A stretch of DNA of 64,000 bases from Isurus oxyrinchus (Eukaryota). The position numbers were made by a program, and so were the translations under genes. Of this stretch, positions 1,837 to 64,000 are shown in pieces. Position 1 is the stretch's first letter. The number at the start of each line of letters is the position of its first letter. The notes under the pieces were generated by a model, which made no database searches, was not told where the DNA came from, and saw only the letters and a program-made list of their open reading frames with translations. Location: assembly GCA_026770705.1 (NCBI GenBank), contig JANJGN010002079.1:1-64000 (forward strand), in the 5' to 3' direction.

Positions 1837-1877
1837 AGCCGGGCAAACAGGCCGGAGGCTTGGCGCGGTCAGCTCAC

Positions 1878-2024: not shown

Positions 2025-2108
2025 CCTGAGAGGGTCGGCAGAGGTACAGGAGGGTCAGCAGGAAGAGGACCGAGGAGACGATGAGTCCAGGCATTGCGAT
2101 GGGGTAAC
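2025..2108 (-). CDS. TAPBPL: Transmembrane exon of the same TAPBPR-like gene
   Basis: Acceptor cccttttactcccccccctacag|GT at 2109/2108 and donor CAG G|gtaaga at 2025/2024; 84 nt, phase 1-1, in frame with the IgC exon. Encodes (G)YPIAMPGLIVSSVLFLLTLLYLCRPSQ(G), a ~21-aa hydrophobic stretch followed by Arg. Confidence 0.85.
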
Positions 2109-2189
2109 CTGTAGGGGGGGGAGTAAAAGGGAGGGTCAAGGGGTCAGCCGAACTGAGACGAGGGCTCCCAGAAACAGTGGGGTAAAGGT

Positions 2190-2854
2190 GGGGGGGATTA
2201 ACCCTCTCACCCACCCCCTCCCAGTTACACACACACACACCGGGCAGCCTCTTCCCCTATCGGAGGGGGGATTAACCCTCTTACCCACCCCCTCCCAGTT
2301 ACACACACTCACACACCGGGCAGCCCCTTCCCCTATCGGAGGGGGGATTAACCCTCTCACTCACCTCCTCCCAGTTACACACACACACACACACACCGGG
2401 CAGCCCCTTCCCCTATCAGAGAGGGGATTAACCCTCTCACCCACCCCCTCCCAGTTACACACACACACACACCGGGCAGCCCCTTCCCCTATCGGAGGGG
2501 GGATTAACCCTCTCACCCACCCCCTCCCAGTTACACACACACACACCGGGCAGCCCCTTCCCCTATCGGAGGGGGGGGATTAACCCTCTCACCCACCTCC
2601 TCCCAGTTACACACACACACACCGGGCAGCCCCTTCCCCTATCGGAGGGGGATTAACCCTCTCACCCACCCCCTCCCAGTTACACACACACACACACACA
2701 CACACACACCGGGCAGCCCCTTCCCCTATCGGAGGGGGATTAACCCTCTCACTCACCCCCTCCCAGTTACACACACACACACACACACACACACAACGGG
2801 CAGCCCCTTCCCCTATCAGAGGGGGAATTAACCCTCTCACCCACCCCCTCCCAG

Positions 2855-2887
<33 letters not shown>

Positions 2888-3380
2888 GGGCAGCCCCTTC
2901 CCCTATCGGAGGGGGGATTAACCCTCTCACCCACCCCCTCCCAGTTACACACACACACACACACACACCGGGCAGCCCCTTCCCCTATCGGAGGGGGGTT
3001 TAACCCTCTCACCCACCCCCTCCCAGTTACACACACACACACACCGGGCAGCCCCTTCCCCTATCGGAGGGGGGATTAACCCTCTCACCCACCCCCTCCC
3101 AGTTACACACACACACACACCGGGCAGCCCCTTCCCCTATCGAAGGGGGGATTAACCCTCTCACCCACCCCCTCCCAGTTACACGCACACACACCGGGCA
3201 GCCCCTTCCCCTATCGGAGGGGGGGATTAACCCTCTCACCCACCCCCTCCCAGTTACACACACACACACACACCGGGCAGCCCCTTCCCCTTTCGAAGGG
3301 GGGATTAACCCTCTCACCCACCCCCCTCCCAGTTACACACACACACACACACACCGGGCAGCCCCTTCCCCTATCGGAGG
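2190..3380 (+). repeat. Intronic minisatellite, 15 copies of a 73-90-bp unit with an embedded variable (CA)n: GGGGGATTAACCCTCTCACCCACCCCCTCCCAGTT(AC)nCGGGCAGCCCCTTCCCCTATCGGA
   Basis: 15 TTAACCCT anchors counted between ~2198 and ~3305; fills ~90% of the 1303-nt intron 2109-3411. Confidence 0.96.
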
Positions 3381-3411
3381 GAGAGGGGAGGGGGAGTACC
3401 ACTGCCAGTAC

Positions 3412-3741
3412 CTGTTGGAGCGTGAAGTCGGAGGGAGACACGGAGAGGCTCCTCGAGGGCGATGTGAGTTACCTCGCAGGTGTAGACTGAGGAAGTCCCC
3501 TCGAGGCTGGGAGTGACCGACACCTGCGAAGAGAGGTTGTAGGTCCCGTCCTGATTGCGGCGGTGGCTGGAGTAGGAGACCCCGGGGAGGGCCAGAGGGC
3601 CCTGGTCATCGGCCAGGCTCTCCTGGGACCACTTGACGGACACATCCAGGGGATAGTACCGGGAAATCTCGCAGGCGAGGTCCTGGCGCACCCCCGCCAC
3701 AAAATGCAGGGTCTCCGCCGTCAGCACCGCGTGAGGCGGCT
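3412..3741 (-). CDS. TAPBPL: Internal exon encoding the IgC1 domain of a tapasin-related protein (TAPBPR-like MHC class I chaperone/peptide editor)
   Basis: Minus-strand acceptor tgtgtcttttttacag|AG at 3742/3741 and donor ACA G|gtactg at 3412/3411; 330 nt, phase 1-1 as is typical of Ig exons. Translation: (E)PPHAVLTAETLHFVAGVRQDLACEISRYYPLDVSVKWSQESLADDQGPLALPGVSYSSHRRNQDGTYNLSSQVSVTPSLEGTSSVYTCEVTHIALEEPLRVSLRLHAPT(G). It has the C1-set hallmarks C..YYP..V.W, DGTY and YxCxVxH. The motifs YYPLDV and YTCxVTHIxLEEPL match human TAPBPR as I recall it better than tapasin (FYPSGG). The paralogue call is from recall, not a search. Confidence 0.88.
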
Positions 3742-3787
3742 CTGTAAAAAAGACACACAGAGTCAACCCTCTCCCGGCGGAGAGAGA

Positions 3788-3833
3788 CCCCCCCCCCCCC
3801 CCACCCCCCCCCCCCCCCCCACACCCCCCCCCC
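3788..3833 (+). repeat. Interrupted poly-C tract (poly-G on the pre-mRNA strand)
   Basis: Runs of C15, C17 and C10 separated by A or ACA, ~45 nt upstream of the IgC acceptor. Confidence 0.9.
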
Positions 3834-3856
3834 TCCGCCACCCACTGACCCAACAC

Positions 3857-6800
3857 TCGCTCAGGCCCCTCGCTCAGTCCCCTCGCTCAGTCCCCCACTC
3901 TCTCTCAGTCCCCTCGCTCAGTCCCCTCGCTCAGTCCCCCACTCTCTCTCAGTCCCCTCGCTCAGTCCCCTCGCTCAGTCCCCTCGCTCAGTCCCCCACT
4001 CTCTCTCAGTCCCCTCGCTCAGTCCCCTCGCTCAGTCCCCCACTCTCTCTCAGTCCCCTCGCTCAGTCCCCCACTCTCTCTCAGTCCCCCTCGCTCAGTC
4101 CCCTCGCTCAGTCCCCCACTCTCTCTCAGTCCCCTCGCTCAGTCCCCTCGCTCAGTCCCCCACTCTCTCCCAGTCCCCTCGCTCAGTCCCCTCGCTCAGT
4201 CCCCCTCGCTCAGTCCCCCACTCTCTCTCAGTCCCCTCGCTCAGTCCCCCACTCTCTCTCAGTCCCCTCGCTCAGTCCCCCCACTCTCTCTCAGTCCCCT
4301 CGCTCAGTCCCCCACTCTCTCTCAGTCCCCTCGCTCAGTCCCCTCGCTCAGTCCCCCACTCTCTCTCAGTCCCCTTGCTCAGTCCCCTCGCTCAGTCCCC
4401 TCGCTCAGTCCCCCACTCTCTCTCAGTCCCCTCGCTCAGTCCCCCACTCTCTCTCAGTCCCCCTCGCTCAGTCCCCTCGCTCAGTCCCCCACTCTCTCTC
4501 AGTCCCCTCGCTCAGTCCCCCACTCTCTCTCAGTCCCCTCGCTCAGCTCCCCTCGCTCAGTCCCCCACTCTCTCTCAGTCCCCTCGCTCAGTCCCCTCGC
4601 TCAGTCCCCCACTCTCTCTCTGTCCCCTCGCTCAGTCCCCCACCCTCTCTCAGTCCCCTCGCTCAGTCCCCTCGCTCAGTCCCCCACTCTCTCTCAGTCC
4701 CCTCGCTCAGTCCCCCTCGCTCAGTCCCCCACTCTCTCTCAGTCCCCTCGCTCAGTCCCCTCGCTCAGTCCCCCACTCTCTCTCAGTCCCCTCGCTCAGT
4801 CCCCCACTCTCTCTCAGTCCCCTCGCTCAGTCCCCTCGCTCAGTCCCCCACTCTCTCTCAGTCCCCTCGCTCAGTCCCCCACTCTCTCTCAGTCCCCTCG
4901 CTCAGTCCCCTCGCTCAGTCCCCTCGCTCAGTCCCCCCACTCTCTCTCAGTCCCCTCGCTCAGTCCCCTCGCTCAGTCCCCCTCGCTCAGTCCCCCACTC
5001 TCTCAGTCCCCTCGCTCAGTCCCCCACTCTCTCTCAGTCCCCTCGCTCAGTCCCCTCGCTCAGTACCCTCGCTCAGTCCCCCACTCTCTCTCAGTCCCCT
5101 CGCTCAGTCCCCTCGCTCAGTCCCCCACTCTCTCTCAGTCCCCTCGCTCAGTCCCCTCGCTCAGTCCCCCACTCTCTCTCTGTCCCCTCGCTCAGTCCCC
5201 TCGCTCAGTCCCCCACTCTCTCTCAGTCCCCTCGCTCAGTCCCCTCGCTCAGTCCCCCACTCTCTCTCAGTCCCCTCGCTCAGTCCCCTCGCTCAGTCCC
5301 CTCGCTCAGTCCCCCACTCTCTCTCAGTCCCCTCGCTCAGTCCCCTCGCTCAGTCCCCCACTCTCTCTCAGTCCCCTCGCTCAGTCCCCCACTCTCTCTC
5401 AGTCCCCTCGCTCAGTCCCCTCGCTCAGTCCCCCACTCTCTCTCAGTCCCCTCGCTCAGTCCCCTCGCTCAGTCCCCCACTCTCTCCCAGTCCCCTCGCT
5501 CAGTCCCCTCGCTCAGTCCCCTCGCTCAGTCCCCCACTCTCTCTCAGTCCCCTCGCTCAGTCCCCCACTCTCTCTCAGTCCCCTCGCTCAGTCCCCCACT
5601 CTCTCTCAGTCCCCTCGCTCAGTCCCCCACTCTCTCTCAGTCCCCTCGCTCAGTCCCCTCGCTCAGTCCCCCACTCTCTCTCAGTCCCCTTGCTCAGTCC
5701 CCTCGCTCAGTCCCCTCGCTCAGTCCCCCACTCTCTCTCAGTCCCCTCGCTCAGTCCCCCACTCTCTCTCAGTCCCCTCGCTCAGTCCCCTCGCTCAGTC
5801 CCCTCGCTCAGTCCCCCACTCTCTCTCAGTCCCCTCGCTCAGTCCCCCACTCTCTCTCAGTCCCCTCGCTCAGTCCCCTCGCTCAGTCCCCCACTCTCTC
5901 TCAGTCCCCTCGCTCAGTCCCCCACTCTCTCTCAGTCCCCTCGCTCAGTCCCCTCGCTCAGTCCCCTCGCTCAGTCCCCCACTCTCTCTGTCCCCCTCGC
6001 TCAGTCCCCCACTCTCTCTCAGTCCCCCTCGCTCAGTCCCCTCGCTCAGTCCCCCCACTCTCTCTCAGTCCCCTCGCTCAGTCCCCCACTCTCGCTTAGT
6101 CCCCTCGCTCAGTCCCCTCGCTCAGTCCCCCACTCTCTCTCAGTCCCCTCGCTCAGTCCCCCACTCTCTCTCATTCCCCTCGCTCAGACCGCCACTCTCT
6201 CTCAGTCCCCTCGCTCAGTCCCCCACTCTCTCTCAGTCCCCTCGCTCAGTCCCCCACTCTCTCTCAGTCCCCTCGCTCAGTCCCCTCGCTCAGTCCCCCA
6301 CTCTCTCTCAGACCCCTCGCTCAGTCCCCTCGCTCAGTCCCCCCACTCTCTCTCAGTCCCCTCGCTCAGTCCCCCACTCTCTCTCAGTCCCCTCGCTCAG
6401 TCCCCTCGCTCAGTCCCCCACTCTCTCAGTCCCCTCGCTCAGTCCCCTCGCTCAGTCCCCCACTCTCTCTCAGTCCCCTCGCTCAGTCCCCTCGCTCAGT
6501 CCCCCACTCTCTCTCCGTCCCCTCGCTCAGTCCCCCACTCTCTCTCAGTCCCCTCGCTCAGTCCCCTCACTCAGTCCCCTCGCTCAGTCCCCCACTCTCT
6601 CTCAGTCCCCTCGCTCAGTCCCCTCGGTCAGTCCCCCACTCTCTCTCAGTCCCCTCGCTCAGTCCCCCACTCTCTCTCAGTCCCCTCGCTCAGTCCCCCA
6701 CTCTCTCTCAGTCCCCTCGCTCAGTCCCCCACTCTCTCTCAGTCCCCTCGCTCAGTCCCCCACTCTCTCTCAGTCCCCTCGCTCAGTCCCCCACTCTCTC

Positions 6801-7017
6801 TCAGTCCCCTCGCTCAGTCCCCTCGCTCAGTCCCCCACTCTCTCTCAGTCCCCTCGCTCAGTCCCCTCGCTCAGTCCCCCACTCTCTCTCAGTCCCCTCG
6901 CTCAGTCCCCGACTCTCTCTCAGTCCCCTCGCTCAGTCCCCCACTCTCTCTCAGTCCCCTCGCTCAGTCCCCGACTCTCTCTCAGTCCCCTCGCTCAGTC
7001 CCCCACTCTCTCTCAGT
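3857..7017 (+). repeat. Two-monomer minisatellite: A = CTCAGTCCCCTCG (13 bp) and B = CTCAGTCCCCCACTCTCT (18 bp), interspersed as AB/AAB/AAAB
   Basis: Directly visible over ~3.16 kb; strongly pyrimidine-rich on the + strand. Confidence 0.96.
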
Positions 7018-10000
7018 GTGATATCTGTACACTGACTGGTGTCTCTCAGTCTCTGTCTCTCTCAGGGAGATATCTGTACACTGACTGGTGTATCTCAGTC
7101 CCCTCTCTCTCTCAGGGAGATATCTGTACACTGACTGGTGTCTCTCAGTCTCTGTCTCTCTCAGGGAGATATCTGTACACTGACTGGTGTATCTCAGTCC
7201 CCTCTCTCTCAGGGAGATATCTGTACACTGACTGGTGTCTCTCAGTCCCCTCTCTCTCAGGGAGATATCTGTACACTGACTGGTGTCTCTCAGTCCCTCT
7301 CTCTCAGGGAGATATCTGTACATCGACTGGTGTCTCTAAGTCTACTCCCTCTCTCTCTCAGGGAGATATCTGTACACTGACTGGTATCTCTCAGTCCCCT
7401 CTCTCTCAGGGAGATATCTGTACACTGACTGGTGTCTCTCAGACCCTCTCTCTCTCAGGGAGATATCTGTGCACTGACTGGTGTCTCTCAGTTCCCTCTC
7501 TCTCAGGGATGTATCTGTACACTGACTGGTGTCTCTCAGTCCGCTCTCTCTCAGGGATGTATCTGTACACTGACTGGTGTCTCTCAGTCCCTCTCTCCCT
7601 CAGGGAGATATGTGTACACTGACTGGTGTCTCTCAGTCCCCTCTCTCTCAGGGATGTATCTGTACACTGACTGGTGTCTCTCAGTCCCCTCTCTCTCAGG
7701 GAGATATCTGTACACTGACTGGTGTCTCTCAGTCCCCTCTCTCTCTCTCAGGGAGATATCTGTACACTAACTGGTGTCTCTCAGTCCCTCTCTCTCTCAG
7801 GGAGATATCTGTACACTGACTGGTGTCTCTCAGTCTCTCTCTCTCTCTCAGGGAAATATCTGTACACTGACTGGTGTCTCTCAGTCCCTCTCTCTCAGGG
7901 TGAAATCTGTAGACTGACTGGTGTCTCTCAGTCCCCTCTCTCTCTGGGAGTTATCTGTACACTGACTGGTGTCTCTCAGTCCCTCTCTCTCAGGGAGATA
8001 TCTGTACACTGACTGGTGTCTCTACGTCTACTCTCTCTCTCTCTCTCAGGGAGATATCTGTACACTGACTGGTGTCTCTCAGTCCCTCTCTCTCAGGGAG
8101 ATATCTGTACACTGACTAGTGTCCCTCAGTCCCCCCTCTCTCTCAGGGAGATATCTGTACACTGACTGGTGTCTCTCAGTCCCCTCTCTCTCAGGGAGAT
8201 ATCTGTACACTGACTGGTGTATCTCAGTCCCTCTCTCTCAGGGAGATATCTGTACACTGACTGGTGTCTCTCAGTCTCCTCTCTCTCAGGGAGAGATCTG
8301 TACACTGACTGGTGTCTCTCAGTCCCCTCTCTCTCAGGGAGATATCTGTACACTGACTGGTGTCTCTCAGTCCCTCTCTCTCAGGGAGATATCTGTACAC
8401 TGACTGGTGTCCCTCAGTCCCTCTCTCTCTCTCAGGGAGATATCTGTACACTGACTGGTGTATCTCAGTCCCTCTATCTCAGGGAGATATCTGTACACTG
8501 ACTGGTGTCTCTCAGTCCCTCTCTCTCTCTCAGGGAGATATCTGTACACTGACTGGTGTATCTCAGTCCCTCTCTCTCAGGGAGATATCTGTACACTGAC
8601 TGGTGTCTCTCAGTCCCTCTCTCTCTCTCAGGGAGATATCTGTACACTGACTGGTGTATCTCAGTCCCTCTCTCTCAGGGAGATATCTGTACACTGACTG
8701 GTGTCTCTAAGTCTACTCTCTCTCTCTCTCAGGGAGATATCTGTACACTGACTCGTGTCTCTCAGTCCCTCTCTCTCTCAGGGAGAAATCTGCACACTGA
8801 CTGTTGTCTCTCAGTCCCTCTCTCTCAGGGAGATATCTGTACACTGACTGGTGTCTCTCAGTCCCTCTCTCTCTCAGGGAGATATCTGTACACTTACTGG
8901 TGTCTCTCAGTCTCTCTCTCTCTCAGGGAGATATCTGTACACTGACTGGTGTCTCTCAGTCCCCCTCTCTCAGTGTGATATCTGTACACTGACTCGTGTC
9001 TCTCAGTCCCTCTCTCTCTCAGGGAGAAATCTGCACACTGACTGGTGTCTCTCAGTCCCTCTCTCTCAGGGAGATATCTGTACACTGACTCGTGTCTCTC
9101 AGTCCCCTCTCTCTCAGTGAGATATCTGTACACTGACTGGTGTCTCTCAGTCCCTCTCTCTCTCAGGGATGTATCTGTACACTGACTGGTGTCTCTCAGT
9201 CCCCTCTCTCTCAGGGAGATATCTGCACACTGACTGGTGTCTCTCAGTCCCTCTCTCTCAGGGAGATATCTGTACACTGACTGATGTCTCTTAGTCCCTC
9301 TCTCTCTCTCAGGGAGATATCTGTACACTAACTGGTGTATCTCAGTCCCTCTATCTCAGGGAGATATCTGTACACTGACTGGTGTCTCTACGTCTACTCT
9401 CTCTCTCTCTCAGGGAGATATCTGTACACTGACTGGTGTCTCTCAGTCCCTCTCTCTCAGGGAGATATCTGTACACTGACTGGTGTCCCTCAGTCCCCCC
9501 TCTCTCTCAGGGAGATATCTGTACACTGACTGGTGTCTCTCAGTCCCCTCTCTCTCAGGGAGATATCTGTACACTGACTGGTGTCTCTCAGTCCCTCTCT
9601 CTCTCAGGGAGATATCTGTACACTGACTGGTGTCTCTCAGTCCCCTCTCTCTCTCTCAGGGAGATATCTGTACACTGACTGGTGTGTCTCAGTCTCCTCT
9701 CTCTCAGGGAAATATCTGTACACTGACTGGTGTCTCTCAGTCCCTCTCTCTCAGGGAGATATCTGTACACTGACTGGTGTCTCTCAGTCTCTCTCTCTCT
9801 CAGGGAGATATCTGTACACTGACTGGTGTCTCTCAGTCCCTCTCTCTCTCAGGGAGATATCTGTACACTAACTGGTTTCTCTCAGACCCCTCTCTCTCTC
9901 AGGGAGATATCTGTACACTGACTCGTGTCTCTCAGTCCCCTCTCTCTCAGGTAGATATCTGTACACTGACTGGTGTCTCTCAGTCTCTCTCTCTCTCTCA

Positions 10001-13000
10001 GGGAGATATCTGTACACTGACTGGTGTCTCTCAGTCCCTCTCTCTCAGGGAGATATCTGTACACTGACTCGTGTCTCTCAGTCCCCTCTCTCTCAGTGAG
10101 ATATCTGTACACTGACTGGTGTCTCTCAGTCCCTCTCTCTCTCAGGGATGTATCTGTACACTGACTGGTGTCTCTCAGTCCCCTCTCTCTCAGGGAGATA
10201 TCTGCACACTGACTGGTGTCTCTCAGTCCCTCTCTCTCAGGGAGATATCTGTACACTGACTGATGTCTCTTAGTCCCTCTCTCTCTCTCAGGGAGATATC
10301 TGTACACTAACTGGTGTATCTCAGTCCCTCTATCTCAGGGAGATATCTGTACACTGACTGGTGTCTCTACGTCTACTCTCTCTCTCTCTCAGGGAGATAT
10401 CTGTACACTGACTGGTGTCTCTCAGTCCCTCTCTCTCAGGGAGATATCTGTACACTGACTGGTGTCCCTCAGTCCCCCCTCTCTCTCAGGGAGATATCTG
10501 TACACTGACTGGTGTCTCTCAGTCCCCTCTCTCTCAGGGAGATATCTGTACACTGACTGGTGTCTCTCAGTCCCTCTCTCTCTCAGGGAGATATCTGTAC
10601 ACTGACTGGTGTCTCTCAGTCCCCTCTCTCTCTCTCAGGGAGATATCTGTACACTGACTGGTGTGTCTCAGTCTCCTCTCTCTCAGGGAAATATCTGTAC
10701 ACTGACTGGTGTCTCTCAGTCCCTCTCTCTCAGGGAGATATCTGTACACTGACTGGTGTCTCTCAGTCTCTCTCTCTCTCAGGGAGATATCTGTACACTG
10801 ACTGGTGTCTCTCAGTCCCTCTCTCTCTCAGGGAGATATCTGTACACTAACTGGTTTCTCTCAGACCCCTCTCTCTCTCAGGGAGATATCTGTACACTGA
10901 CTCGTGTCTCTCAGTCCCCTCTCTCTCAGGTAGATATCTGTACACTGACTGGTGTCTCTCAGTCTCTCTCTCTCTCTCAGGGAGATATCTGTACACTGAC
11001 TGGTGTCTCTCAGTCCCTCTCTCTCAGGGAGATATCTGTACACTGACTGGTGTCTCTACGTCTACTCTCTCTCTCTCTCAGGGAGATATCTGTACACTGA
11101 CTGGTGTCTCTCAGTCCCTCTCTCTCAGGGAGATATCTGTACACTGACTAGTGTCCCTCAGTCCCCCCTCTCTCTCAGGGAGATATCTGTACACTGACTG
11201 GTGTCTCTCAGTCCCCTCTCTCTCAGGGAGCTATCTGTACACTGACTGGTGTCTCTTAGTCCCTCTCTCTCTCAGGGAGATATCTGTACAATGACTGGTG
11301 TCTCTCAGTCCCCTCTCTCTCTCTCAGGGAGATATCTGTACTCTGACTGGTGTCTCTCAGTCCCCTCTCTCTCTCAGGGAGATATCTGTACACTGACTCG
11401 TGTCTCTCAGTCCCTCTCTCTCTCAGGGAGAAATCTGCACACTGACTGTTGTCTCTCAGTCCCTCTCTCTCAGGGAGATATCTGTACACTGACTGGTGTC
11501 TCTCAGTCCCTCTCTCTCTCAGGGAGATATCTGTACACTTACTGGTGTCTCTCAGTCTCTCTCTCTCTCAGGGAGATATCTGTACACTGACTGGTGTCTC
11601 TCAGTCCCCCTCTCTCAGTGTGATATCTGTACACTGACTCGTGTCTCTCAGTCCCTCTCTCTCTCAGGGAGAAATCTGCACACTGACTGGTGTCTCTCAG
11701 TCCCTCTCTCTCAGGGAGATATCTGTACACTGACTCGTGTCTCTCAGTCCCCTCTCTCTCAGTGAGATATCTGTACACTGACTGGTGTCTCTCAGTCCCT
11801 CTCTCTCTCAGGGATGTATCTGTACACTGACTGGTGTCTCTCAGTCCCCTCTCTCTCAGGGAGATATCTGCACACTGACTGGTGTCTCTCAGTCCCTCTC
11901 TCTCAGGGAGATATCTGTACACTGACTGATGTCTCTTAGTCCCTCTCTCTCTCTCAGGGAGATATCTGTACACTAACTGGTGTATCTCAGTCCCTCTATC
12001 TCAGGGAGATATCTGTACACTGACTGGTGTCTCTACGTCTACTCTCTCTCTCTCTCAGGGAGATATCTGTACACTGACTGGTGTCTCTCAGTCCCTCTCT
12101 CTCAGGGAGATATCTGTACACTGACTGGTGTCCCTCAGTCCCCCCTCTCTCTCAGGGAGATATCTGTACACTGACTGGTGTCTCTCAGTCCCCTCTCTCT
12201 CAGGGAGATATCTGTACACTGACTGGTGTCTCTCAGTCCCTCTCTCTCTCAGGGAGATATCTGTACACTGACTGGTGTCTCTCAGTCCCCTCTCTCTCTC
12301 TCAGGGAGATATCTGTACACTGACTGGTGTGTCTCAGTCTCCTCTCTCTCAGGGAAATATCTGTACACTGACTGGTGTCTCTCAGTCCCTCTCTCTCAGG
12401 GAGATATCTGTACACTGACTGGTGTCTCTCAGTCTCTCTCTCTCTCAGGGAGATATCTGTACACTGACTGGTGTCTCTCAGTCCCTCTCTCTCTCAGGGA
12501 GATATCTGTACACTAACTGGTTTCTCTCAGACCCCTCTCTCTCTCAGGGAGATATCTGTACACTGACTCGTGTCTCTCAGTCCCCTCTCTCTCAGGTAGA
12601 TATCTGTACACTGACTGGTGTCTCTCAGTCTCTCTCTCTCTCTCAGGGAGATATCTGTACACTGACTGGTGTCTCTCAGTCCCTCTCTCTCAGGGAGATA
12701 TCTGTACACTGACTCGTGTCTCTCAGTCCCCTCTCTCTCAGTGAGATATCTGTACACTGACTGGTGTCTCTCAGTCCCTCTCTCTCTCAGGGATGTATCT
12801 GTACACTGACTGGTGTCTCTCAGTCCCCTCTCTCTCAGGGAGATATCTGCACACTGACTGGTGTCTCTCAGTCCCTCTCTCTCAGGGAGATATCTGTACA
12901 CTGACTGATGTCTCTTAGTCCCTCTCTCTCTCTCAGGGAGATATCTGTACACTAACTGGTGTATCTCAGTCCCTCTATCTCAGGGAGATATCTGTACACT

Positions 13001-52000: not shown

Positions 52001-55000
52001 GACTGGTGTCTCTCAGTCCCCTCTCTCTCTCAGGGAGATATCTGTACACTGACTGGTGTGTCTCAGTCTCCTCTCTCTCAGGGAGAGATCTGTACACTGA
52101 CTCGTGTCTCTCAGTCCCTCTCTCTCTCAGGGAGAAATCTGCACACTGCCTGGTGTCTCTCAGTCCCTCTCTCTCAGGGAGATATCTGTACACTGACTGG
52201 TGTCTCTCAGTCCCCTCTCTCTCAGTGAGATATCTGTACACTGACTGGTGTCTCTCAGTCCCTCTCTCTCTCAGGGACGTATCTGTACACTGACTGGTGT
52301 CTCTCAGTCCCCTCTCTCTCAGGGAGATATCTGCACACTGACTGGTGTCTCTCAGTCCCTCTCTCTCAGGGAGATATCTGTACACTGACTGATGTCTCTC
52401 AGTCCCTCTCTCTCTCTCAGGGAGATATCTGTACACTGACTGGTGTATCTCAGTCCCTCTATCTCAGGGAGATATCTGTACACTGACTGGTGTCTCTCAG
52501 TCCCTCTCTCTCTCAGGGAGATATCTGTACACTGACTGGTGTCTCTCAGTCCCTCTCTCTCAGGGAGATATCTGTACACTGACTGGTGTCCCTCAGTCCC
52601 CCCTCTCTCTCAGGGAGATATCTGTACACTGACTGGTGTCTCTCAGTCCCCTCTCTCTCAGGGAGATATCTGAACACTGACTGGTGTCTCTCAGTCCCTC
52701 TCTCTCTCAGGGAGATATCTGTACACTGACTGGTGTCTCTCAGTCCCCTCTCTCTCTCTCAGGGAGATATCTGTACACTGACTCGTGTCTCTCAGTCCCT
52801 CTCTCTCTCAGGGAAATATCTGTACACTGACTGGTGTCTCTCAGTCCCTCTCTCTCAGGGAGATATCTGTACACTGACTGGTGTCTCTCAGTCTCTCTCT
52901 CTCTCAGGGAGATATCTGTACACTGACTGGTGTCTCTCAGTCCCTCTCTCTCTCAGGGAGATAGCTGTACACTAACTGGTTTCTCTCAGACCCCTCTCTC
53001 TCTCAGGGAGATATCTGTACACTGACTCGTGTCTCTCAGTCCCCTCTCTCTCAGGTAGATATCTGTACACTGACTGGTGTCTCTCAGTCTCTCTCTCTCT
53101 CTCAGGGAGATATCTGTACACTGACTGGTGTCTCTACGTCTACTCTCTCTCTCTCTCAGGGAGATATCTGTACACTGACTGGTGTCTCTCAGTCCCTCTC
53201 TCTCAGGGAGATATCTGTACACTGACTAGTGTCCCTCAGTACCCCCTCTCTCTCAGGGAGATATCTGTACACTGACTGGTCTCTCTCAGTCCCCTCTCTC
53301 TCAGGGAGATATCTGTACACTGACTGGTGTCTCTCAGTCCCTCTCTCTCTCAGGGAGATATCTGTACACTGACTGGTGTCTCTCAGTCCCCTCTCTCTCT
53401 CTCAGGGAGATATCTGTACTCTGACTGGTGTCTCTCAGTCCCCTCTCTCTCTCAGGGAGATATCTGTGCACTGACGGGTGTCTCTCAGTCCCCTCTCTCT
53501 CAGGGAGATATCTGTACACTGACTGGTGTCTCTCAGTCCCTCTCTCTCTCAGCGAGATATCTGTACACTGACTGGTGTCTCTCAGTCGCCTCTCTCTCTC
53601 AGGGAGATATCTGTACACTGACTGGTGTGTCTCAGTCTCCTCTCTCTCAGGGAGAGATCTGTACACTGACTGGTGTCTCTCAGTCCCCTCTCTCTCAGGG
53701 AGATATCTGTACACTGACTGGTGTCTCTCAGTCCCTCTCTCTCAGGGAGATATCTGTACACTGACTGGTGTCCCTCAGTCCCTCTCTCTCTCTCAGGGAG
53801 ATATCTGTACACTGACTGGTGTCTCTCAGTCCCTCTCTCTCTCAGGGAGATAGCTGTACACTAACTGGTTTCTCTCAGACCCCTCTCTCTCTCAGGGAGA
53901 TATCTGTACACTGACTCGTGTCTCTCAGTCCCCTCTCTCTCAGGTAGATATCTGTACACTGACTGGTGTCTCTCAGTCTCTCTCTCTCTCTCAGGGAGAT
54001 ATCTGTACACTGACTGGTGTCTCTCAGTCCCTCTCTCTCAGGGAGATATCTGTACACTGACTGGTGTCTCTACGTCTACTCTCTCTCTCTCTCAGGGAGA
54101 TATCTGTACACTGACTGGTGTCTCTCAGTCCCTCTCTCTCAGGGAGATATCTGTACACTGACTAGTGTCCCTCAGTCCCCCCTCTCTCTCAGGGAGATAT
54201 CTGTACACTGACTGGTGTCTCTCAGTCCCCTCTCTCTCAGGGAGATATCTGTACACTGACTGGTGTCTCTCAGTCCCTCTCTCTCTCAGGGAGATATCTG
54301 TACACTGACTGGTGTCTCTCAGTCCCCTCTCTCTCTCTCAGGGAGATATCTGTACTCTGACTGGTGTCTCTCAGTCCCCTCTCTCTCTCAGGGAGATATC
54401 TGTGCACTGACGGGTGTCTCTCAGTCCCCTCTCTCTCAGGGAGATATCTGTACACTGACTGGTGTCTCTCAGTCCCTCTCTCTCTCAGGGAGATATCTGT
54501 ACACTGACTGGTGTCTCTCAGTCCCCTCTCTCTCTCAGGGAGATATCTGTACACTGACTGGTGTGTCTCAGTCTCCTCTCTCTCAGGGAGAGATCTGTAC
54601 ACTGACTGGTGTCTCTCAGTCCCCTCTCTCTCAGGGAGATATCTGTACACTGACTGGTGTCTCTCAGTCCCTCTCTCTCAGGGAGATATCTGTACACTGA
54701 CTGGTGTCCCTCAGTCCCTCTCTCTCTCTCAGGGAGATATCTGTACACTGACTGGTGTATCTCAGTCCCTCTATCTCAGGGAGATATCTGTACACTGACT
54801 GGTGTCTCTCATTCCCTCTCTCTCTCTCAGGGAGATATCTGTACACTGACTGGTGTATCTCAGTCCCTCTCTCTCAGGGAAATATCTGTACAATGACTGG
54901 TGTCTCTCAGTCTCCTCTCTCTCAGGGAGAGATCTGTGCACTGACTGGTGTCTCTCAGTCCCCTCTCTCTCAGGGAGATATCTGTACACTGACTGGTGTC

Positions 55001-58000
55001 TCTCAGTCCCTCTCTCTCAGGGAGATATCTGTGCACTGACTGGTGTCCCTCAGTCCCTCTCTCTCTCTCAGGGAGATATCTGTACACTGACTGGTCTATC
55101 TCAGTCCCTCTCTGTACACTGACTGGTGTCTCTCAGTCCCTCTCTCTCTCTCAGGGAGATATCTGTACAATGACTGGTGTATCTCAGTCCCTCTCTCTCA
55201 GGGAGATATCTGTACACTGACTGGTGTCTCTCAGTCCCTCTCTCTCTCTCAGGGAGATATCTGTACACTGACTGGTGTATCTCAGTCCCTCTCTCTCAGG
55301 GAGATATCTGTACACTGACTGGTGTCTCTAAGTCTACTCTCTCTCTCTCTCAGGGAGATATCTGTACACTGACACGTGTGTCTCAGTCCCTCTCTCTCTC
55401 AGGGAGAAATCTGCACACTGACTGTTGTCTCTCAGTCCCTCTCTCTCAGGGAGATATCTGTACACTGACTGGTGTCTCTCAGTCCCTCTCTCTCTCAGGG
55501 AGATATCTGTACACTGACTGGAGTCTCTCAGTCCCTCTCTCTCTCAGGGAGATATCTGTACACTGACTGGTGTCTCTCAGTCCCCCTCTCTCAGTGAGAT
55601 ATCTGTACACTGACTCGTGTCTCTCAGTCCCTCTCTCTCTCAGGGAGAAATCTGCACACTGACTGGTGTCTCTCAGTCCCTCTCTCTCAGGGAGATATCT
55701 GTACACTGACTGGTGTCTCTCAGTCCCCTCTCTCTCAGTGAGATATCTGTACACTGACTGGTGTCTCTCAGTCCCTCTCTCTCTCAGGGACGTATCTGTA
55801 CACTGACTGGTGTCTCTCAGTCCCCTCTCTCTCAGGGAGATATCTGCACACTGACTGGTGTCTCTCAGTCCCTCTCTCTCAGGGAGATATCTGTACACTG
55901 ACTGATGTCTCTCAGTCCCTCTCTCTCTCTCAGGGAGATATCTGTACACTGACTGGTGTATCTCAGTCCCTCTATCTCAGGGAGATATCTGTACACTGAC
56001 TGGTGTCTCTCAGTCCCTCTCTCTCTCAGGGAGATATCTGTACACTGACTGGTGTCTCTCAGTCCCTCTCTCTCAGCGAGATATCTGTACACTGACTGGT
56101 GTCTCTCAGTCTCTCTCTCTCTCAGGGAGATATCTGTACACTGACTGGTGCCTCTCAGTCCCCTCTCTCTCAGGGAGATATCTGTGCACTGACGGGTGTC
56201 TCTCAGTCCCCTCTCTCTCAGGGAGATATCTGTACACTGACTGGTGTCTCTCAGTCCCTCTCTCTCTCAGGGAGATATCTGTACACTGACTGGTGTCTCT
56301 CAGTCCCCTCTCTCTCTCAGGGAGATATCTGTACACTGACTGGTGTCTCTCAGTCTCCTCTCTCTCAGGGAGAGATCTGTACACTGACTGGTGTCTCTCA
56401 GTCCCCTCTCTCTCAGGGAGATATCTGTACACTGACTGGTGTCTCTCAGTCCCTCTATCTCAGGGAGATATCTGTACAGTGACTGGTGTCTCTCAGTCCC
56501 TCTCACTCTCTCAGGGAGATATCTGTACACTGACTGGTGTATCTCAGTCCCTCTCTCTCAGGGAGTTATCTGTACACTGACTAGTGTCCCTCAGTCCCCC
56601 CTCTCTCTCAGGGAGATATCTGTACACTGACTGGTGTCTCTCAGTCCCCTCTCTCTCAGGGAGCTATCTGTACACTGACTGGTGTCTCTTAGTCCCTCTC
56701 TCTCTCAGGGAGATATCTGTACACTGACTGGTGTCTCTCAGTCCCCTCTCTCTCTCTCAGGGAGATATCTGTACTCTGACTGGTGTCTCTCAGTCCCCTC
56801 TCTCTCTCAGGGAGATATCTGTACGCTGACTGGTGTCTCTCAGTCGCTCTCTCTCTCAGGGAGATATCTGTACACTGACTGGTGTCTCTCAGTCCCTCTC
56901 TCTCAGCGAGATATCTGTACACTGACTGGTGTCTCTCAGTCTCTCTCTCTCTCAGGGAGATATCTGTACACTGACTGGTGCCTCTCAGTCCCCTCTCTCT
57001 CAGGGAGATATCTGTGCACTGACGGGTGTCTCTCAGTCCCCTCTCTCTCAGGGAGATATCTGTACACTGACTGGTGTCTCTCAGTCCCTCTCTCTCTCAG
57101 GGAGATATCTGTACACTGACTGGTGTCTCTCAGTCCCCTCTCTCTCTCAGGGAGATATCTGTACACTGACTGGTGTGTCTCAGTCTCCTCTCTCTCAGGG
57201 AGAGATCTGTACACTGACTGGTGTCTCTCAGTCCCCTCTCTCTCAGGGAGATATCTGTACACTGACTGGTGTCTCTCAGTCCCTCTCTCTCAGGGAGATA
57301 TCTGTACACTGACTGGTGTCCCTCAGTCCCTCTCTCTCTCTCAGGGAGATATCTGTACACTGACTGGTGTATCTCAGTCCCTCTATCTCAGGGAGATATC
57401 TGTACACTGACTGGTGTCTCTCATTCCCTCTCTCTCTCTCAGGGAGATATCTGTACACTGACTGGTGTATCTCAGTCCCTCTCTCTCAGGGAAATATCTG
57501 TACACTGACTGGTGTCTCTCAGTCTCCTCTCTCTCAGGGAGAGATCTGTACACTGACTGGTGTCTCTCAGTCCCCTCTCTCTCAGGGAGATATCTGTACA
57601 CTGACTGGTGTCTCTCAGTCCCTCTCTCTCAGGGAGATATCTGTACACTGACTGGTGTCCCTCAGTCCCTCTCTCTCTCTCAGGGAGATATCTGTACACT
57701 GACTGGTCTATCTCAGTCCCTCTCTCTCAGGGAGATATCTGTACACTGACTGGTGTCTCTCAGTCCCTCTCTCTCTCTCAGGGAGATATCTGTACACTGA
57801 CTGGTGTCTCTCAGTCCCTCTCTCTCAGGGAGATATCTGTACACTGACTGGTGTCTCTCAGTCCCTCTCTCTCTCTCAGGGAGATATCTGTACACTGACT
57901 GGTGTATCTCAGTCCCTCTCTCTCAGGGAGATATCTGTACACTGACTGGTGTCTCTAAGTCTACTCTCTCTCTCTCTCAGGGAGATATCTGTACACTGAC

Positions 58001-61000
58001 TCGAGTCTCTCAGTCCCTCTCTCTCTCAGGGAGAAATCTGCACACTGACTGTTGTCTCTCAGTCCCTCTCTCTCAGGGAGATATCTGTACACTGACTGGT
58101 GTCTCTCAGTCCCTCTCTCTCTCAGGGAGATATCTGTACACTGACTGGTGTCTCTCAGTCCCTCTCTCTCTCAGGGAGATATCTGTACACTGACTGGTGT
58201 CTCTCAGTCCCCCTCTCTCAGTGAGATATCTGTACACTGACTCGTGTCTCTCAGTCCCTCTCTCTCTCAGGGAGAAATCTGCACACTGACTGGTGTCTCT
58301 CAGTCCCTATCTCTCAGGGAGATATCTGTACACTGACTGGTGTCTCTCAGTCCCCTCTCTCTCAGTGAGATATCTGTACACTGACTGGTGTCTCTCAGTC
58401 CCTCTCTCTCTCAGGGACGTATCTGTACACTGACTGGTGTCTCTCAGTCCCCTCTCTCTCAGGGAGATATCTGCACACTGACTGGTGTCTCTCAGTCCCT
58501 CTCTCTCAGGGAGATATCTGTACACTGACTGATGTCTCTCAGTCCCTCTCTCTCTCTCAGGGAGATATCTGTACACTGACTGGTGTCTCTCAGTCCCTCT
58601 CTCTCTCAGGGAGATATCTGTACACTGACTGGTGTCTCTCAGTCCCTCTCTCTCAGGGAGATATCTGTACACTGACTGGTGTCCCTCAGTCCCCCCTCTC
58701 TCTCAGGGAGATATCTGTACACTGACTGGTGTCTCTCAGTCCCCTCTCTCTCAGGGAGATATCTGTACACTGACTGGTGTCTCTCAGTCCCTCTCTCTCT
58801 CAGGGAGATATCTGTACACTGACTGGTGTCTCTCAGTCCCCTCTCTCTCTCTCAGGGAGATATCTGTACACTGACTCGTGTCTCTCAGTCCCTCTCTCTC
58901 TCAGGGAAATATCTGTACACTGACTGGTGTCTCTCAGTCCCTCTCTCTCAGGGAGATATCTGTACACTGACTGGTGTCTCTCAGTCTCTCTCTCTCTCAG
59001 GGAGATATCTGTACACTGACTGGTGTCTCTCAGTCCCTCTCTCTCTCAGGGAGATAGCTGTACACTAACTGGTTTCTCTCAGACCCCTCTCTCTCCCAGG
59101 GAGATATCTGTACACTGACTCGTGTCTCTCAGTCCCCTCTCTCTCAGGTAGATATCTGTACACTGACTGGTGTCTCTCAGTCTCTCTCTCTCTCTCAGGG
59201 AGATATCTGTACACTGACTGGTGTCTCTCAGTCCCTCTCTCTCAGGGAGATATCTGTACACTGACTGGTGTCTCTCAGTCCCTCTCTCTCAGGGAGATAT
59301 CTGTACACTGACTAGTGTCCCTCAGTCCCCCCTCTCTCTCAGGGAGATATCTGTACACTGACTGGTGTCTCTCAGTCCCCTCTCTCTCAGGGAGATATCT
59401 GTACACTGACTGGTGTCTCTCAGTCCCTCTCTCTCTCAGGGAGATATCTGTACACTGACTGGTGTCTCTCAGTCCCCTCTCTCTCTCTCAGGGAGATATC
59501 TGTACTCTGACTGGTGTCTCTCAGTCCCCTCTCTCTCTCAGGGAGATATCTGTACGCTGACTGGTGTCTCTCAGTCGCTCTCTCTCTCAGGGAGATATCT
59601 GTACACTGACTGGTGTCTCTCAGTCCCTCTCTCTCAGCGAGATATCTGTACACTGACAGGTGTCTCTCAGTCTCTCTCTCTCTCAGGGAGATATCTGTAC
59701 ACTGACTGGTGCCTCTCAGTCCCCTCTCTCTCAGGGAGATATCTGTGCACTGACTGGTGTCTCTCATTCCCTCTCTCTCTCTCAGGGAGATATCTGTACA
59801 CTGACTGGTGTATCTCAGTCCCTCTCTCTCAGGGAAATATCTGTACACTGACTGGTGTCTCTCAGTCTCCTCTCTCTCAGGGAGAGATCTGTGCACTGAC
59901 TGGTGTCTCTCAGTCCCCTCTCTCTCAGGGAGATATCTGTACACTGACTGGTGTCTCTCAGTCCCTCTCTCTCAGGGAGATATCTGTACACTGACTGGTG
60001 TCCCTCAGTCCCTCTCTCTCTCTCAGGGAGATATCTGTACACTGACTGGTCTATCTCAGTCCCTCTCTGTACACTGACTGGTGTCTCTCAGTCCCTCTCT
60101 CTCTCTCAGGGAGATATCTGTACAATGACTGGTGTATCTCAGTCCCTCTCTCTCAGGGAGATATCTGTACACTGACTGGTGTCTCTCAGTCCCTCTCTCT
60201 CTCTCAGGGAGATATCTGTACACTGACTGGTGTATCTCAGTCCCTCTCTCTCAGGGAGATATCTGTACACTGACTGGTGTCTCTAAGTCTACTCTCTCTC
60301 TCTCTCAGGGAGATATCTGTACACTGACACGTGTGTCTCAGTCCCTCTCTCTCTCAGGGAGAAATCTGCACACTGACTGTTGTCTCTCAGTCCCTCTCTC
60401 TCAGGGAGATATCTGTACACTGACTGGTGTCTCTCAGTCCCTCTCTCTCTCAGGGAGATATCTGTACACTGACTGGTGTCTCTCAGTCCCTCTCTCTCTC
60501 AGGGAGATATCTGTACACTGACTGGTGTCTCTCAGTCCCCCTCTCTCAGTGAGATATCTGTACACTGACTCGTGTCTCTCAGTCCCTCTCTCTCTCAGGG
60601 AGAAATCTGCACACTGACTGGTGTCTCTCAGTCCCTCTCTCTCAGGGAGATATCTGTACACTGACTCGTGTCTCTCAGTCCCCTCTCTCTCAGTGAGATA
60701 TCTGTACACTGACTGGTGTCTCTCAGTCCCTCTCTCTCTCAGGGACGTATCTGTACACTGACTGGTGTCTCTCAGTCCCCTCTCTCTCAGGGAGATATCT
60801 GCACACTGACTGGTGTCTCTCAGTCCCTCTCTCTCAGGGAGATATCTGTACACTGACTGATGTCTCTCAGTCCCTCTCTCTCTCTCAGGGAGATATCTGT
60901 ACACTGACTGGTGTATCTCAGTCCCTCTATCTCAGGGAGATATCTGTACACTGACTGGTGTCTCTCAGTCCCTCTCTCTCTCAGGGAGATATCTGTACAC

Positions 61001-64000
61001 TGACTGGTGTCTCTCAGTCCCTCTCTCTCAGCGAGATATCTGTACACTGACTGGTGTCTCTCAGTCTCTCTCTCTCTCAGGGAGATATCTGTACACTGAC
61101 TGGTGCCTCTCAGTCCCCTCTCTCTCAGGGAGATATCTGTGCACTGACGGGTGTCTCTCAGTCCCCTCTCTCTCAGGGAGATATCTGTACACTGACTGGT
61201 GTCTCTCAGTCCCTCTCTCTCTCAGGGAGATATCTGTACACTGACTGGTGTCTCTCAGTCCCCTCTCTCTCTCAGGGAGATATCTGTACACTGACTGGTG
61301 TCTCTCAGTCTCCTCTCTCTCAGGGAGAGATCTGTACACTGACTGGTGTCTCTCAGTCCCCTCTCTCTCAGGGAGATATCTGTACACTGACTGGTGTCTC
61401 TCAGTCCCTCTATCTCAGGGAGATATCTGTACACTGACTGGTGTATCTCAGTCCCTCTCTCTCAGGGAGATATCTGTACACTGACTGGTGTCTCTCAGTC
61501 TCCTCTCTCTCAGGGAGAGATCTGTACACTGACTGGTGTCTCTCAGTCCCCTCTCTCTCAGGGAGATATCTGTACACTGACTGGTGTCTCTCAGTCCCTC
61601 TCTCTCAGGGAGATATCTGTACACTGACTGGTGTATCGCAGTCCCTCTATCTCAGGGAGATATCTGTACAGTGACTGGTGTCTCTCAGTCCCTCTCACTC
61701 TCTCAGGGAGATATCTGTACACTGACTGGTGTATCTCAGTCCCTCTCTCTCAGGGAGATATCTGTACACTGACTGGTGTCTCTCAGTCCCTCTCTCTCTC
61801 TCAGGGAGATATCTGTACACTGACTGGTGTCTCTCAGTCCCCTCTCTCTCTCAGGGAGATATCTGTATGCTGACTGGTGTCTCTCTGTTCCTCTCTCTCT
61901 CAGGGAAATATCTGTACACTGACTGGTGTCTCTCAGTCCCTCTCTCTCAGGGAGATATCTGTACACTGACTGGTGTCTCTCAGTCTCTCTCTCTCTCAGG
62001 GAGATATCTGTACACTGACTGGTGTCTCTCAGTCCCTCTCTCTCTCAGAGAGATATCTGTACTCTAACTGGTTTCTCTCAGACCCCTCTCTCTCTCAGGG
62101 AGATATCTGTACACTGACTGGTGTCTCTCAGTCTCCTCTCTCTCAGGGAGAGATCTGTACACTGACTGGTGTCTCTCAGTTCCCTCTCTCTCAGGGAGAT
62201 ATCTGTACACTGACTCGTGTCTCTCAGTCCCCTCTCTCTCAGGTAGATATCTGTACACTGACTGGTGTCTCTCAGTCTCTCTCTCTCTCTCAGGGAGATA
62301 TCTGTACACTGACTGGTGTCTCTCAGTCCCTCTCTCTCAGGGAGATCTCTGTACACTGACTGGTGTCCCTTATTCCCTCTCTCTCTCTCAGGGAGATATC
62401 TGTACACTGACTGGTGTATCTCAGGCCCTCGATCTCAGGGAGATATCTGTACACTGACTGGTGTCTCTCAGTCCCTCTCTCTCTCTCAGGGAGATATCTG
62501 TACACTGACTGGTGTATCTCAGTCCCTCTCTCTCAGGGAGATATCTGTACACTGACTGGTGTCTCTCAGTCCCTCTCTCTCTCTCAGGGAGATATCTGTA
62601 CACTGACTGGTGTATCTCAGTCCCTCTATCTCAGGGAGATATCTGTACACTGACTGGTGTCTCTCAGTCCCCTCTCTCTCTCAGGGAGATATCTGTACAC
62701 TGACTGGTGTCTCTCAGTCCCCTCTCTCTCAGGGAGATACTGTATACTGACTCATGTCTCTCTGTCCCTCTCTCTCTCAGGGAGATATCTGTACACTGAC
62801 TGGTGTCTCTCTGTCCCCTCTCTCTCTCAGGGATGTATCTGTACACTGACTGGTGTCTCTCAGTCCCTCTCTCTCTCAGGGAGATATCTGTACACTGACT
62901 GGTGTCTCTCAGTCCCCCTCTCTCAGTGAGATATCTGTACACTGACTCGTGTCTCTCAGTCCCTCTCTCTCTCAGGGAGAAATCTGCACACTGACTGGTG
63001 TCTCTCAGTCCCTCTCTCTCAGGGAGATATCTGTACACTGACTCGTGTCTCTCAGTCCCCTCTCTCTCAGTGAGATATCTTTACACTGACTGGTGTCTCT
63101 CAGTCTCTCTCTCTCTCAGGGACGTATCTGTACACTGACTGTTATCTCTCAGTCCCCTCTCTCTCTCAGGGAGAAATCTGCACACTGACTGGTTTCTCTC
63201 AGTCCCTCTCTCTCAGGGAGATATCTGTACACTGACTGGTGTCTCTCAGTCCCTCTCTCTCAGGGAGATATCTGTACACTGACTGGTGTCTCTCAGTCCC
63301 TCTCTCTCTCTCTCTCAGGGAGATATCTGTACACTGACTGGTATCTCTCAGTCCCCTCTCTCTCAGGGAGATATCTGTACACTGACTGGTGTCTCTCAGT
63401 TCCCTCTCTCTCAGGGATGTGTCTGTACACTGACTGGTGTCTCTCAGTCCCTCTCTCCCTCAGGGAGATATGTGTACACTGACTGGTGTCTCTCAGTCCC
63501 CTCTCTCTCAGGGATGTATCTGTACACTGACTGGTGTCTCTCAGTCCCCTCTCTCTCTCAGGGAGATATCTGTATGCTGACTGGTGTCTCTCTGTCCCTC
63601 TCTCTCTCAGGGAAATATCTGTACACTGACTGGTGTCTCTCAGTCCCTCTCTCTCAGGGAGATATCTGTACACTGACTGGTGTCTCTCAGTCTCTCTCTC
63701 TCTCAGGGAGATATCTGTACACTGACTGGTGTCTCTCAGTCCCTCTCTCTCTCAGAGAGATATCTGTACACTAACTGGTTTCTCTCAGACCCCTCTCTCT
63801 CTCAGGGAGATATCTGTACACTGACTGGTGTCTCTCAGTCTCCTCTCTCTCAGGGAGAGATCTGTACACTGACTGGTGTCTCTCAGTTCCCTCTCTCTCA
63901 GGGAGATATCTGTACACTGACTCGTGTCTCTCAGTCCCCTCTCTCTCAGGTAGATATCTGTACACTGACTGGTGTCTCTCAGTTTCTCTCTCTCTCTCAG
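7010..64000 (+). repeat. Large satellite array, 47-54-bp unit AGGGAGATATCTGTACACTGACTGGTGTCTCTCAGTCCC(C)(TC)n, roughly 1,150-1,200 copies, open at the window end
   Basis: Continuous head-to-tail repeat with no inversion or unique insert that I could see. The consensus unit carries GATATC (EcoRV) and TGTACA (BsrGI) palindromes. Length variation comes from the C run and the (TC)n tract. Copy number is estimated as 57 kb / ~48.5 bp. Confidence 0.98.

What the first reader, a model, noticed from the sequence alone, without database searches (positions are those of the whole stretch)
3742..64000. Satellite-filled giant intron (>60 kb) in an MHC class I pathway gene
Seen: after ~115 nt of mostly unique or poly-C sequence, everything upstream of the IgC exon is tandem repeat, while the downstream exons are intact with good splice sites. 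Established: mammalian TAPBPL is a compact gene, and satellite-driven intron gigantism is best known from Drosophila Y-linked fertility genes. Inference: Pol II must cross >57 kb of homogeneous satellite, so array length could act as an allelic dial on induction delay or expression, and the intron would produce abundant satellite RNA.
Basis: partly seen in the sequence, partly recalled or inferred. Interest (0 to 1): 0.7.

Follow-up and report, generated by a model that had tools for sequence, protein, structure and literature searches.

The report
Giant satellite intron in shark TAPBPR
A shark immune gene (TAPBPR) has a 62,000-base intron made almost wholly of tandem repeats that is spliced out correctly, but an unrelated gene in the same genome has an even larger intron of the same repeat, so this is likely ordinary, tolerated repeat growth in shark DNA rather than a control device for the immune gene.

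Summary
Real, but not special to this gene. The window is the start of an 88.9-kb unplaced contig, 97% tandem repeat. The missing exons lie just beyond it. Six exons splice in frame into a stop-free tapasin-related protein (TAPBPR), 90% identical to the white shark's and found once in the genome. The IgV-IgC intron is 62,033 bp and 99.9% tandem repeat. Contigs from three runs of one sample join IgV directly to IgC.

The ~48-bp unit belongs to a genome-wide family: 27,676 exact 40-mers, 375 on this contig. Two variants found only here are spread through the array, so it likely grew in place. A 67.5-kb array of the same family fills a 71-kb intron of an FE65/APBB1-like gene. Four of the gene's five other introns are also mostly repeat. 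In 3 of 7 other sharks the whole gene fits on a contig shorter than this intron. Earlier, unchecked scan notes report similar introns in other shark genomes.

Best reading: neutral array expansion, tolerated by ordinary splicing. The expression dial is untested, has a human precedent (ABCA7), and nothing ties it to TAPBPR. No spanning read validates the length.

The parts
3742..64000 (-). Phase-1 GT-AG intron between IgV and IgC, 99.9% tandem repeat. It continues past the window to contig position 65,774 (62,033 bp in all). Beyond it on contig C2079, same numbering: IgV exon 66,110-65,775, exon 3 68,063-67,779, exon 2 70,308-70,078, then a 69-bp array 70,326-88,931 to the contig end
7002..64000 (.). 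Array of a ~48-bp satellite, continuing to contig position 65,751 (58.7 kb; 1,198 monomers of 180 types); the purine-rich strand is the transcribed one; it starts within about 25 bases of the IgV donor
3849..7010 (.). 3.15-kb array of mixed 13- and 18-bp units that share the CT-rich part of the 48-bp unit (seen in the sequence)
3742..3848 (-). unique 3' end of the intron: G-rich run, pyrimidine tract and AG acceptor
3412..3741 (-). IgC (C1-set) exon of TAPBPR
   Evidence: Pfam PF07654 E 4e-12; best PDB hits are TAPBPR, E 4.5e-20; covered exactly by spliced contigs
2109..3411 (-). 1,303-bp intron, 91% a 76-bp repeat
2025..2108 (-). transmembrane exon
   Evidence: joined to IgC in contigs of X3 and X7
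1869..1906 (-). predicted last coding exon and stop
   Evidence: aligns with the white shark tail; not covered by the laid contigs
1..1506 (.). 35-bp tandem array downstream of the gene

Best explanation
The 62-kb IgV-IgC intron of this intact shark TAPBPR gene is spliced out exactly at its GT-AG ends and is filled by a genome-wide ~48-bp satellite that likely grew in place by repeated block duplication and is likely tolerated as neutral filler. Shown: intact frame, spliced junction, family membership, locus-specific variants spread through the array, and a second gene built the same way. Inferred: (1) a few seed units lay just behind the donor, as short clusters do at other sites; (2) unequal crossing-over or slippage multiplied blocks of 1-50 monomers; (3) Pol II reads through, since the transcribed strand has no poly(A) signal, no strong donor and no acceptor-like site; (4) the spliceosome defines the short, well-signalled exons and ignores the array. 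The cost would be roughly 18-62 extra minutes per transcript (elongation rates recalled).
For: Six exons give 433 residues without a stop; 428 aligned residues are 90% identical to the white shark protein; the only copy found in G000. Contigs from X3, X5 and X7 (one sample) cover 3410/3419-3742 and continue into the IgV exon; the DNA run X1 continues into the intron. The 40-mer occurs 27,676 times, control 0, on C1, C4, C11, C14 and C15 among the first 100 places listed; 375 (1.4%) are on this contig. Two variants occur only here, 33 of 33 and 25 of 25 hits, spread over 8-54 kb and 9-65 kb. The array parses into 399 phrases against 1,000-1,030 for five shuffles, longest copied block 54 monomers. 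The transcribed strand has 0 AATAAA, 0 AG|GTRAG and 0 Y10NYAG sites; the other strand has 1,107 Y10NYAG. Control: a 67.5-kb array, about 86% like this one, lies in a 71,241-bp in-frame GT-AG interval of an FE65/APBB1-like gene. Orthologs in Cetorhinus, Mustelus and Heptranchias lie on contigs of 24,272, 27,774 and 44,241 bp. Elasmobranch small chromosomes and chromosome ends are rich in tandem repeats, and introns lengthen by repeat gain (PMC10620051 and 10.1101/2025.06.08.657570, passages).
Against: Neutrality is inferred from generality and lack of conservation, not measured. The three short ortholog contigs could hold collapsed arrays, and for 4 of 7 sharks the intron could not be measured. 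Of 10 other array sites examined, only 1 was this large (sizes 0.15-67.5 kb; first-listed sites, not a random sample), so giant arrays are the tail of the distribution. The two paralogs have IgV-IgC introns of only about 2.5 and 4.5 kb. The junction evidence is assembled contigs from one sample whose RNA status is the tool's guess. No long read validates the length.
Confidence: 0.72

Rival explanations
1. Allelic dial: array length varies between individuals and tunes TAPBPR output, induction delay or skipping of the flanking IgV exon, as the ABCA7 intronic VNTR does in people.
For: The array is young and dynamic, so length polymorphism is likely. ABCA7 VNTR length tracks expression and exon skipping (PMC5954066 abstract). 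A white shark database isoform lacks exactly the 112-residue IgV exon (P0005). Human TAPBPR splice isoforms change MHC I binding (PMC4008236 abstract). 62 kb costs about 18-62 min at 1-3.5 kb/min (rates recalled).
Against: No allele or expression data. The same architecture occurs in an FE65-like gene. All 3 laid contigs from the spliced sample kept IgV joined to IgC, though contigs drop rare variants. The white shark intron itself was not seen, so the skipped isoform cannot be tied to an array.
Confidence: 0.12
2. Length artefact: the intron is real but the assembler over-expanded or mis-ordered the array, so the true intron is much shorter than 62 kb.
For: Unplaced 88.9-kb contig that begins and ends in repeat. 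Exact duplicated blocks up to 2,672 bp. One exon base (3625) differs from all four laid runs. Exon 1 is missing from the assembly.
Against: No N in the contig. No exact duplicate longer than 2.7 kb, and 79 of 1,198 monomers are unique, a mosaic of short blocks rather than one replayed read. Diagnostic variants occur on no other contig and run through the array, against a chimera. Both flanks belong to one transcript.
Confidence: 0.11
3. Drosophila-type intron gigantism: a dedicated programme of RNA-binding proteins handles the satellite transcript and makes it a developmental timer or RNA body.
For: Tandem repeat fills over 99% of the intron and must be transcribed, as for kl-3 and kl-5 (PMC6508621 abstract).
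Against: 62 kb against megabases; minutes against about 90 h; a 48-bp complex unit against simple repeats; a conserved chaperone gene, not a germline gene; no dedicated factor tested.
Confidence: 0.03
4. Orphan fragment or pseudogene: the three exons in the window have no upstream partners.
For: Only that exon 1 is absent from the assembly.
Against: Three upstream exons lie in cis, in frame; spliced contigs run from exon 1 through IgC (X7); no other copy found.
Confidence: 0.02

Closest known systems
TAPBPR (tapasin-related protein; human gene TAPBPL; PDB 5WER, 5OPI)
   Same: Domain order and exon layout (IgV in exon 4, IgC in exon 5, as in PMC4008236 abstract); 44% identical to human over IgV+IgC; groups with shark tapasin-related proteins.
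   Different: Coding exons 2-7 span about 68 kb here, with a 62-kb IgV-IgC intron; the human gene is about 15 kb (recalled).
Tandem-repeat-rich small chromosomes and chromosome ends of elasmobranchs (PMC10620051; 10.1101/2025.06.08.657570; 10.1101/443036; passages read)
   Same: GC-rich, tandem-repeat-dominated, hard-to-assemble gene region; intron growth by repeat gain.
   Different: Those papers give genome-wide trends, attribute long introns mainly to LINEs and report smaller genes on small chromosomes; the passages seen do not describe single introns filled by one 60-kb array.
ABCA7 intron-18 VNTR (PMC5954066, abstract)
   Same: A minisatellite array inside an intron, next to a splice site.
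   Different: ABCA7 has measured length polymorphism and effects and reaches about 10 kb (PMC6857246, listing); here neither is measured, the array is about six times longer and belongs to a dispersed family.
Drosophila Y-loop genes kl-3 and kl-5 (PMC6508621, abstract)
   Same: Satellite makes up nearly all of a transcribed intron.
   Different: Megabase scale, simple repeats, about 90 h of transcription, dedicated RNA-binding proteins, germline only.

Membership tests
TAPBPR (tapasin-related) | N-terminal domain, IgV, IgC, transmembrane segment and short tail in an unbroken frame | tested here: met
   the signal-peptide exon is seen only in run contigs
TAPBPR (tapasin-related) | Groups with TAPBPR, apart from tapasin and the third paralog | tested here: met
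   IgV+IgC tree of 24 rows: shark clade 94/95; tapasins plus the C21 and C10 paralogs separate at 100/99; midpoint root only; no named TAPBPL (Grimholt) sequence included
TAPBPR (tapasin-related) | Binds MHC class I and edits peptides | not tested
   no binding prediction or assay run
Spliceosomal GT-AG intron | GT donor, AG acceptor, matching phase, removed in transcripts | tested here: met
Dispersed satellite family, locally amplified | Same unit at many loci; locus-specific variants homogenised within an array | tested here: met
Drosophila-type intron gigantism | Megabase-sized intron | tested here: not met
   62,033 bp against megabases
Drosophila-type intron gigantism | Satellite makes up over 99% of the intron and is transcribed | tested here: met
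   99.9%; transcription follows from the spliced junction if the array is in cis as assembled
Drosophila-type intron gigantism | Dedicated RNA-binding factors and stage-long transcription | not testable with these tools
   needs nascent RNA and cell imaging
Expression- or splicing-linked intronic VNTR (ABCA7 type) | Length polymorphism among individuals | not testable with these tools
   one assembly; run contigs break at repeats
Expression- or splicing-linked intronic VNTR (ABCA7 type) | Length correlates with expression or exon skipping | not testable with these tools
   no paired genotype and RNA data

The most novel reading that the evidence does not exclude
Sharks carry a whole class of ordinary genes whose introns hold 50-200-kb single-satellite arrays. 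These arrays would be hypervariable between individuals and, when giant, survive mainly with the acceptor-free strand transcribed. At TAPBPR the array length would set induction delay or IgV-exon skipping, and so tune MHC class I peptide editing without any coding change.
Probability: 0.12. Interest if true: 0.65.

Novelty: new member of a known kind. Interest (0 to 1): 0.27.

Why it matters
It shows that a conserved immune gene is spliced across about 60 kb of near-pure satellite in a vertebrate. It also explains why this gene sits on small unplaced contigs, often without exon 1, in shark assemblies. It gives a locus with short unique flanks and diagnostic variants where intron length, delay and splicing fidelity could be tested between alleles. 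Because a non-immune gene is built the same way, the question worth asking is genome-wide (how many shark genes, which orientation, how variable), not one about TAPBPR.

Tried and rejected
1. Exon 1: a 30-base piece of the exon seen in run X7 found 0 places in G000 at up to 2 mismatches; an incomplete assembly is the likely reason.
2. Run search: no RNA holder listed on record; the RNA label of X3, X5, X7, X8 and X9 is the tool's guess. X8 laid nothing on exon 2, which proves nothing.
3. Orientation rule (acceptor-like strand kept off the transcript): 10 other array sites were examined, and a host intron was established for 2. The FE65-like intron agrees (67.5 kb). The ATG9 intron does not (0.8 kb plus small clusters, in an AT-AC intron). 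With TAPBPR that is 2 of 3, so no rule is shown. An earlier unchecked note (e1-9957511) reports a 138-kb array the other way round. For the other 8 sites no host intron was established: 6 had no exon assigned, one lies about 2 kb past a homeobox stop, and one lies between an Ig exon and a zinc-finger frame. ORFs were pre-filtered (132 and 120 of 388; 197 of 1,470; 147 of 1,369), so exons may have been missed.
4. Mobile-element origin of the unit: the flanks of 14 clusters shared only 3 short matches of 20-33 bases; no common carrier seen.
5. A 6-base micro-exon in the FE65-like intron: a strict pattern found none.
6. and part had off-by-one exon ends, corrected.
7. Sequence look-up in earlier notes gave one chance hit.
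8. Literature: searches listed no paper on single-satellite giant introns in sharks; only open-licence papers are searched and no supplements were read.
9. No structure or complex prediction was run; it does not bear on the intron.

Full report
OBSERVATION. The window is bases 1-64,000 of contig C2079 (88,931 bp, no N) in a 4.98-Gb, 5,558-contig genome. The contig is 96.9% tandem repeat, and the finding's range 99.9%. On the minus strand lie an IgC exon (3741-3412), a transmembrane exon (2108-2025) and a short tail exon (1906-1869). Upstream come 107 unique or poly-C bases, a 3.15-kb array of 13/18-bp units, and from 7002 a ~48-bp array.

THE GENE. The IgC exon matches Pfam C1-set and has TAPBPR as its best solved relative (E 4.5e-20, next family 1e-14). 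The rest of the contig holds three more exons: IgV 66,110-65,775, exon 3 68,063-67,779 and exon 2 70,308-70,078. The six exons join through GT-AG, phase-1 junctions into 433 residues without a stop, 90% identical to a white shark tapasin-related protein over 428 aligned residues. The IgV-IgC intron is 3742-65,774, or 62,033 bp. A search with the white shark protein found these exons only on C2079; the tool used a stricter first look, so weak matches may be missing. In a 24-row IgV+IgC tree the gene is sister to the white and basking shark proteins within a shark clade. The paralogs on C21 (75% to a named tapasin-like protein over IgV) and C10 fall with tapasin. I read C10 as the third paralog, TAPBPL of Grimholt (PMC5824609, passages); that label is inferred, as no named TAPBPL was in the tree. 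The host is thus a shark, likely lamniform.

SPLICING. Contigs of runs X3, X5 and X7 (one sample, one study; RNA status is the tool's guess) cover the IgC exon up to 3742 and continue with the end of the IgV exon. X3 and X7 continue on the other side into the transmembrane exon, while the DNA run X1 reads on into the intron. X7, and X9 from a second organism, join exon 2 to exon 3 and to an exon 1 encoding the signal peptide. That exon was not found in G000 and would lie beyond a 69-bp array of at least 18.6 kb that runs off the contig. The orphan or pseudogene reading is refuted.

THE ARRAY. It has 1,198 monomers of 180 types, 79 of them unique, about 2.8% from consensus. It parses into 399 phrases, against 1,000-1,030 for five shuffles, with copied blocks up to 54 monomers. 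The longest exact duplicate is a 2,672-bp tandem block. Two variants occur nowhere else in the genome (33 of 33 and 25 of 25 hits on C2079) and are spread along the array. This is the pattern expected of in-place growth by block duplication (inference), and it argues against a chimera of arrays. It cannot prove the exact length. The transcribed strand has no AATAAA or ATTAAA, no AG|GTRAG and no Y10NYAG site, while the other strand has 1,107 acceptor-like sites (motifs recalled). The array therefore offers the splicing and 3'-end machinery almost nothing to trip on.

IS IT SPECIAL? (1) A 40-base piece of the unit occurs 27,676 times in the genome (reversed control 0); 375, or 1.4%, are on this contig. 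(2) On C11 a 67,492-bp array of the same family, about 86% alike, lies between two exons that match consecutive parts of FE65/APBB1 (PDB 3D8D residues 54-95 and 99-136). They join in frame across a 71,241-bp GT-AG interval; no transcript was checked there. (3) Four of the five other TAPBPR introns are 65-99.9% tandem repeat of different units, and the 30 kb around tapasin is 47%. (4) Of 7 other sharks with an ortholog, 3 have it on contigs of 24,272, 27,774 and 44,241 bp, shorter than this intron; collapse is possible there, and the other 4 could not be measured. (5) Published work describes tandem-repeat-rich small chromosomes and chromosome ends, and repeat-driven intron growth, in elasmobranchs (PMC10620051, 10.1101/2025.06.08.657570 and 10.1101/443036, passages). 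(6) Earlier unchecked scan notes report repeat-filled introns or arrays of 15.7, 58, 94, 138 and 196 kb in other shark genomes. Against ordinariness: of 10 other sites, 9 were 0.15-10.5 kb; the paralogs' matching introns are about 2.5 and 4.5 kb; and searches listed no paper describing such introns in sharks.

MECHANISM. Most likely (0.72), a seed cluster behind the IgV donor expanded neutrally, Pol II reads through, and exon definition removes the intron. The cost would be 18-62 min per transcript (rates recalled). The dial (0.12) has a precedent in ABCA7 (PMC5954066, abstract) and one hint, a white shark isoform lacking exactly the IgV exon, but no data here. A length artefact (0.11) remains until spanning reads exist. 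A Drosophila-type programme (0.03) fails on scale: megabases and about 90 h (PMC6508621, abstract). I tested whether intronic arrays keep their acceptor-like strand off the transcript: 2 of 3 established introns do, and the exception is a short array in an AT-AC intron of ATG9, so this stays a lead.

VERDICT. Observation confirmed and extended to a complete, spliced 62-kb intron; interpretation partly supported. A new member of a known kind, found before by this scan on other shark DNA. Interest 0.27. Other papers cited were seen only as abstract (PMC4008236) or search listing (PMC6857246); no supplements were read.

Noticed in passing
G000:C11:366,811-438,051 (L036-L043): An FE65/APBB1-like gene has a 71,241-bp interval holding a 67.5-kb array of the same family. 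Its two exons leave out two residues of the human chain (PDB 3D8D), where a neuronal 6-base micro-exon is recalled to lie; a strict search found no such micro-exon.
   Followed up: partly
G000:C14:143,809,608-143,812,504 (L066-L067): An ATG9 gene has a 2,897-bp AT-AC intron with minor-spliceosome-like donor and branch point (consensus recalled). It carries about 24 units of this satellite with the acceptor-like strand transcribed.
   Followed up: partly
window 1869-1885, minus strand: The predicted tail ends KKVS, a di-lysine ER-retrieval-like motif (recalled); white shark ends RKLS, and the other shark orthologs and human lack it. The same bases also resemble a splice donor, so the true end is open.
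   Followed up: no
protein P0005 (white shark isoform X2): Lacks exactly the 112-residue IgV exon that precedes the giant intron here.
   Followed up: no
window 3625 and 3699: At 3625 all four laid runs differ from the window (assembly error or second allele). At 3699 only the three runs of sample S2 differ (a usable exonic SNP).
   Followed up: no
orthologs: In 5 of 7 other sharks the gene lies on pieces of 3.7 Mb or less, and the basking shark model also lacks exon 1; the region is consistently hard to assemble.
   Followed up: no
G000:C21:118.006-118.023 Mb and G000:C10:154.663-154.668 Mb: Tapasin lies about 0.3 Mb from the end of C21 in DNA that is 47% tandem repeat; a third family member lies on C10 in DNA with none. 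This shark thus has three tapasin-family genes.
   Followed up: partly
contig C2079 70,326-88,931; G000:C11:355,408-356,465; G000:C14:138.10-138.12 Mb: The 69-bp unit of intron 1 also forms arrays on C11 and C14, so it is a second dispersed family.
   Followed up: no
L009 5582-5619 (contig 69,582-69,619): A 36-base stretch in intron 2 matches unrelated contigs of runs X3 and X9; probably a scrap of a dispersed repeat.
   Followed up: no
G000:C16:85.8-88.5 Mb: A cluster of about 25 near-identical C1-set exons, picked up as weak matches; probably an immunoglobulin-family array.
   Followed up: no
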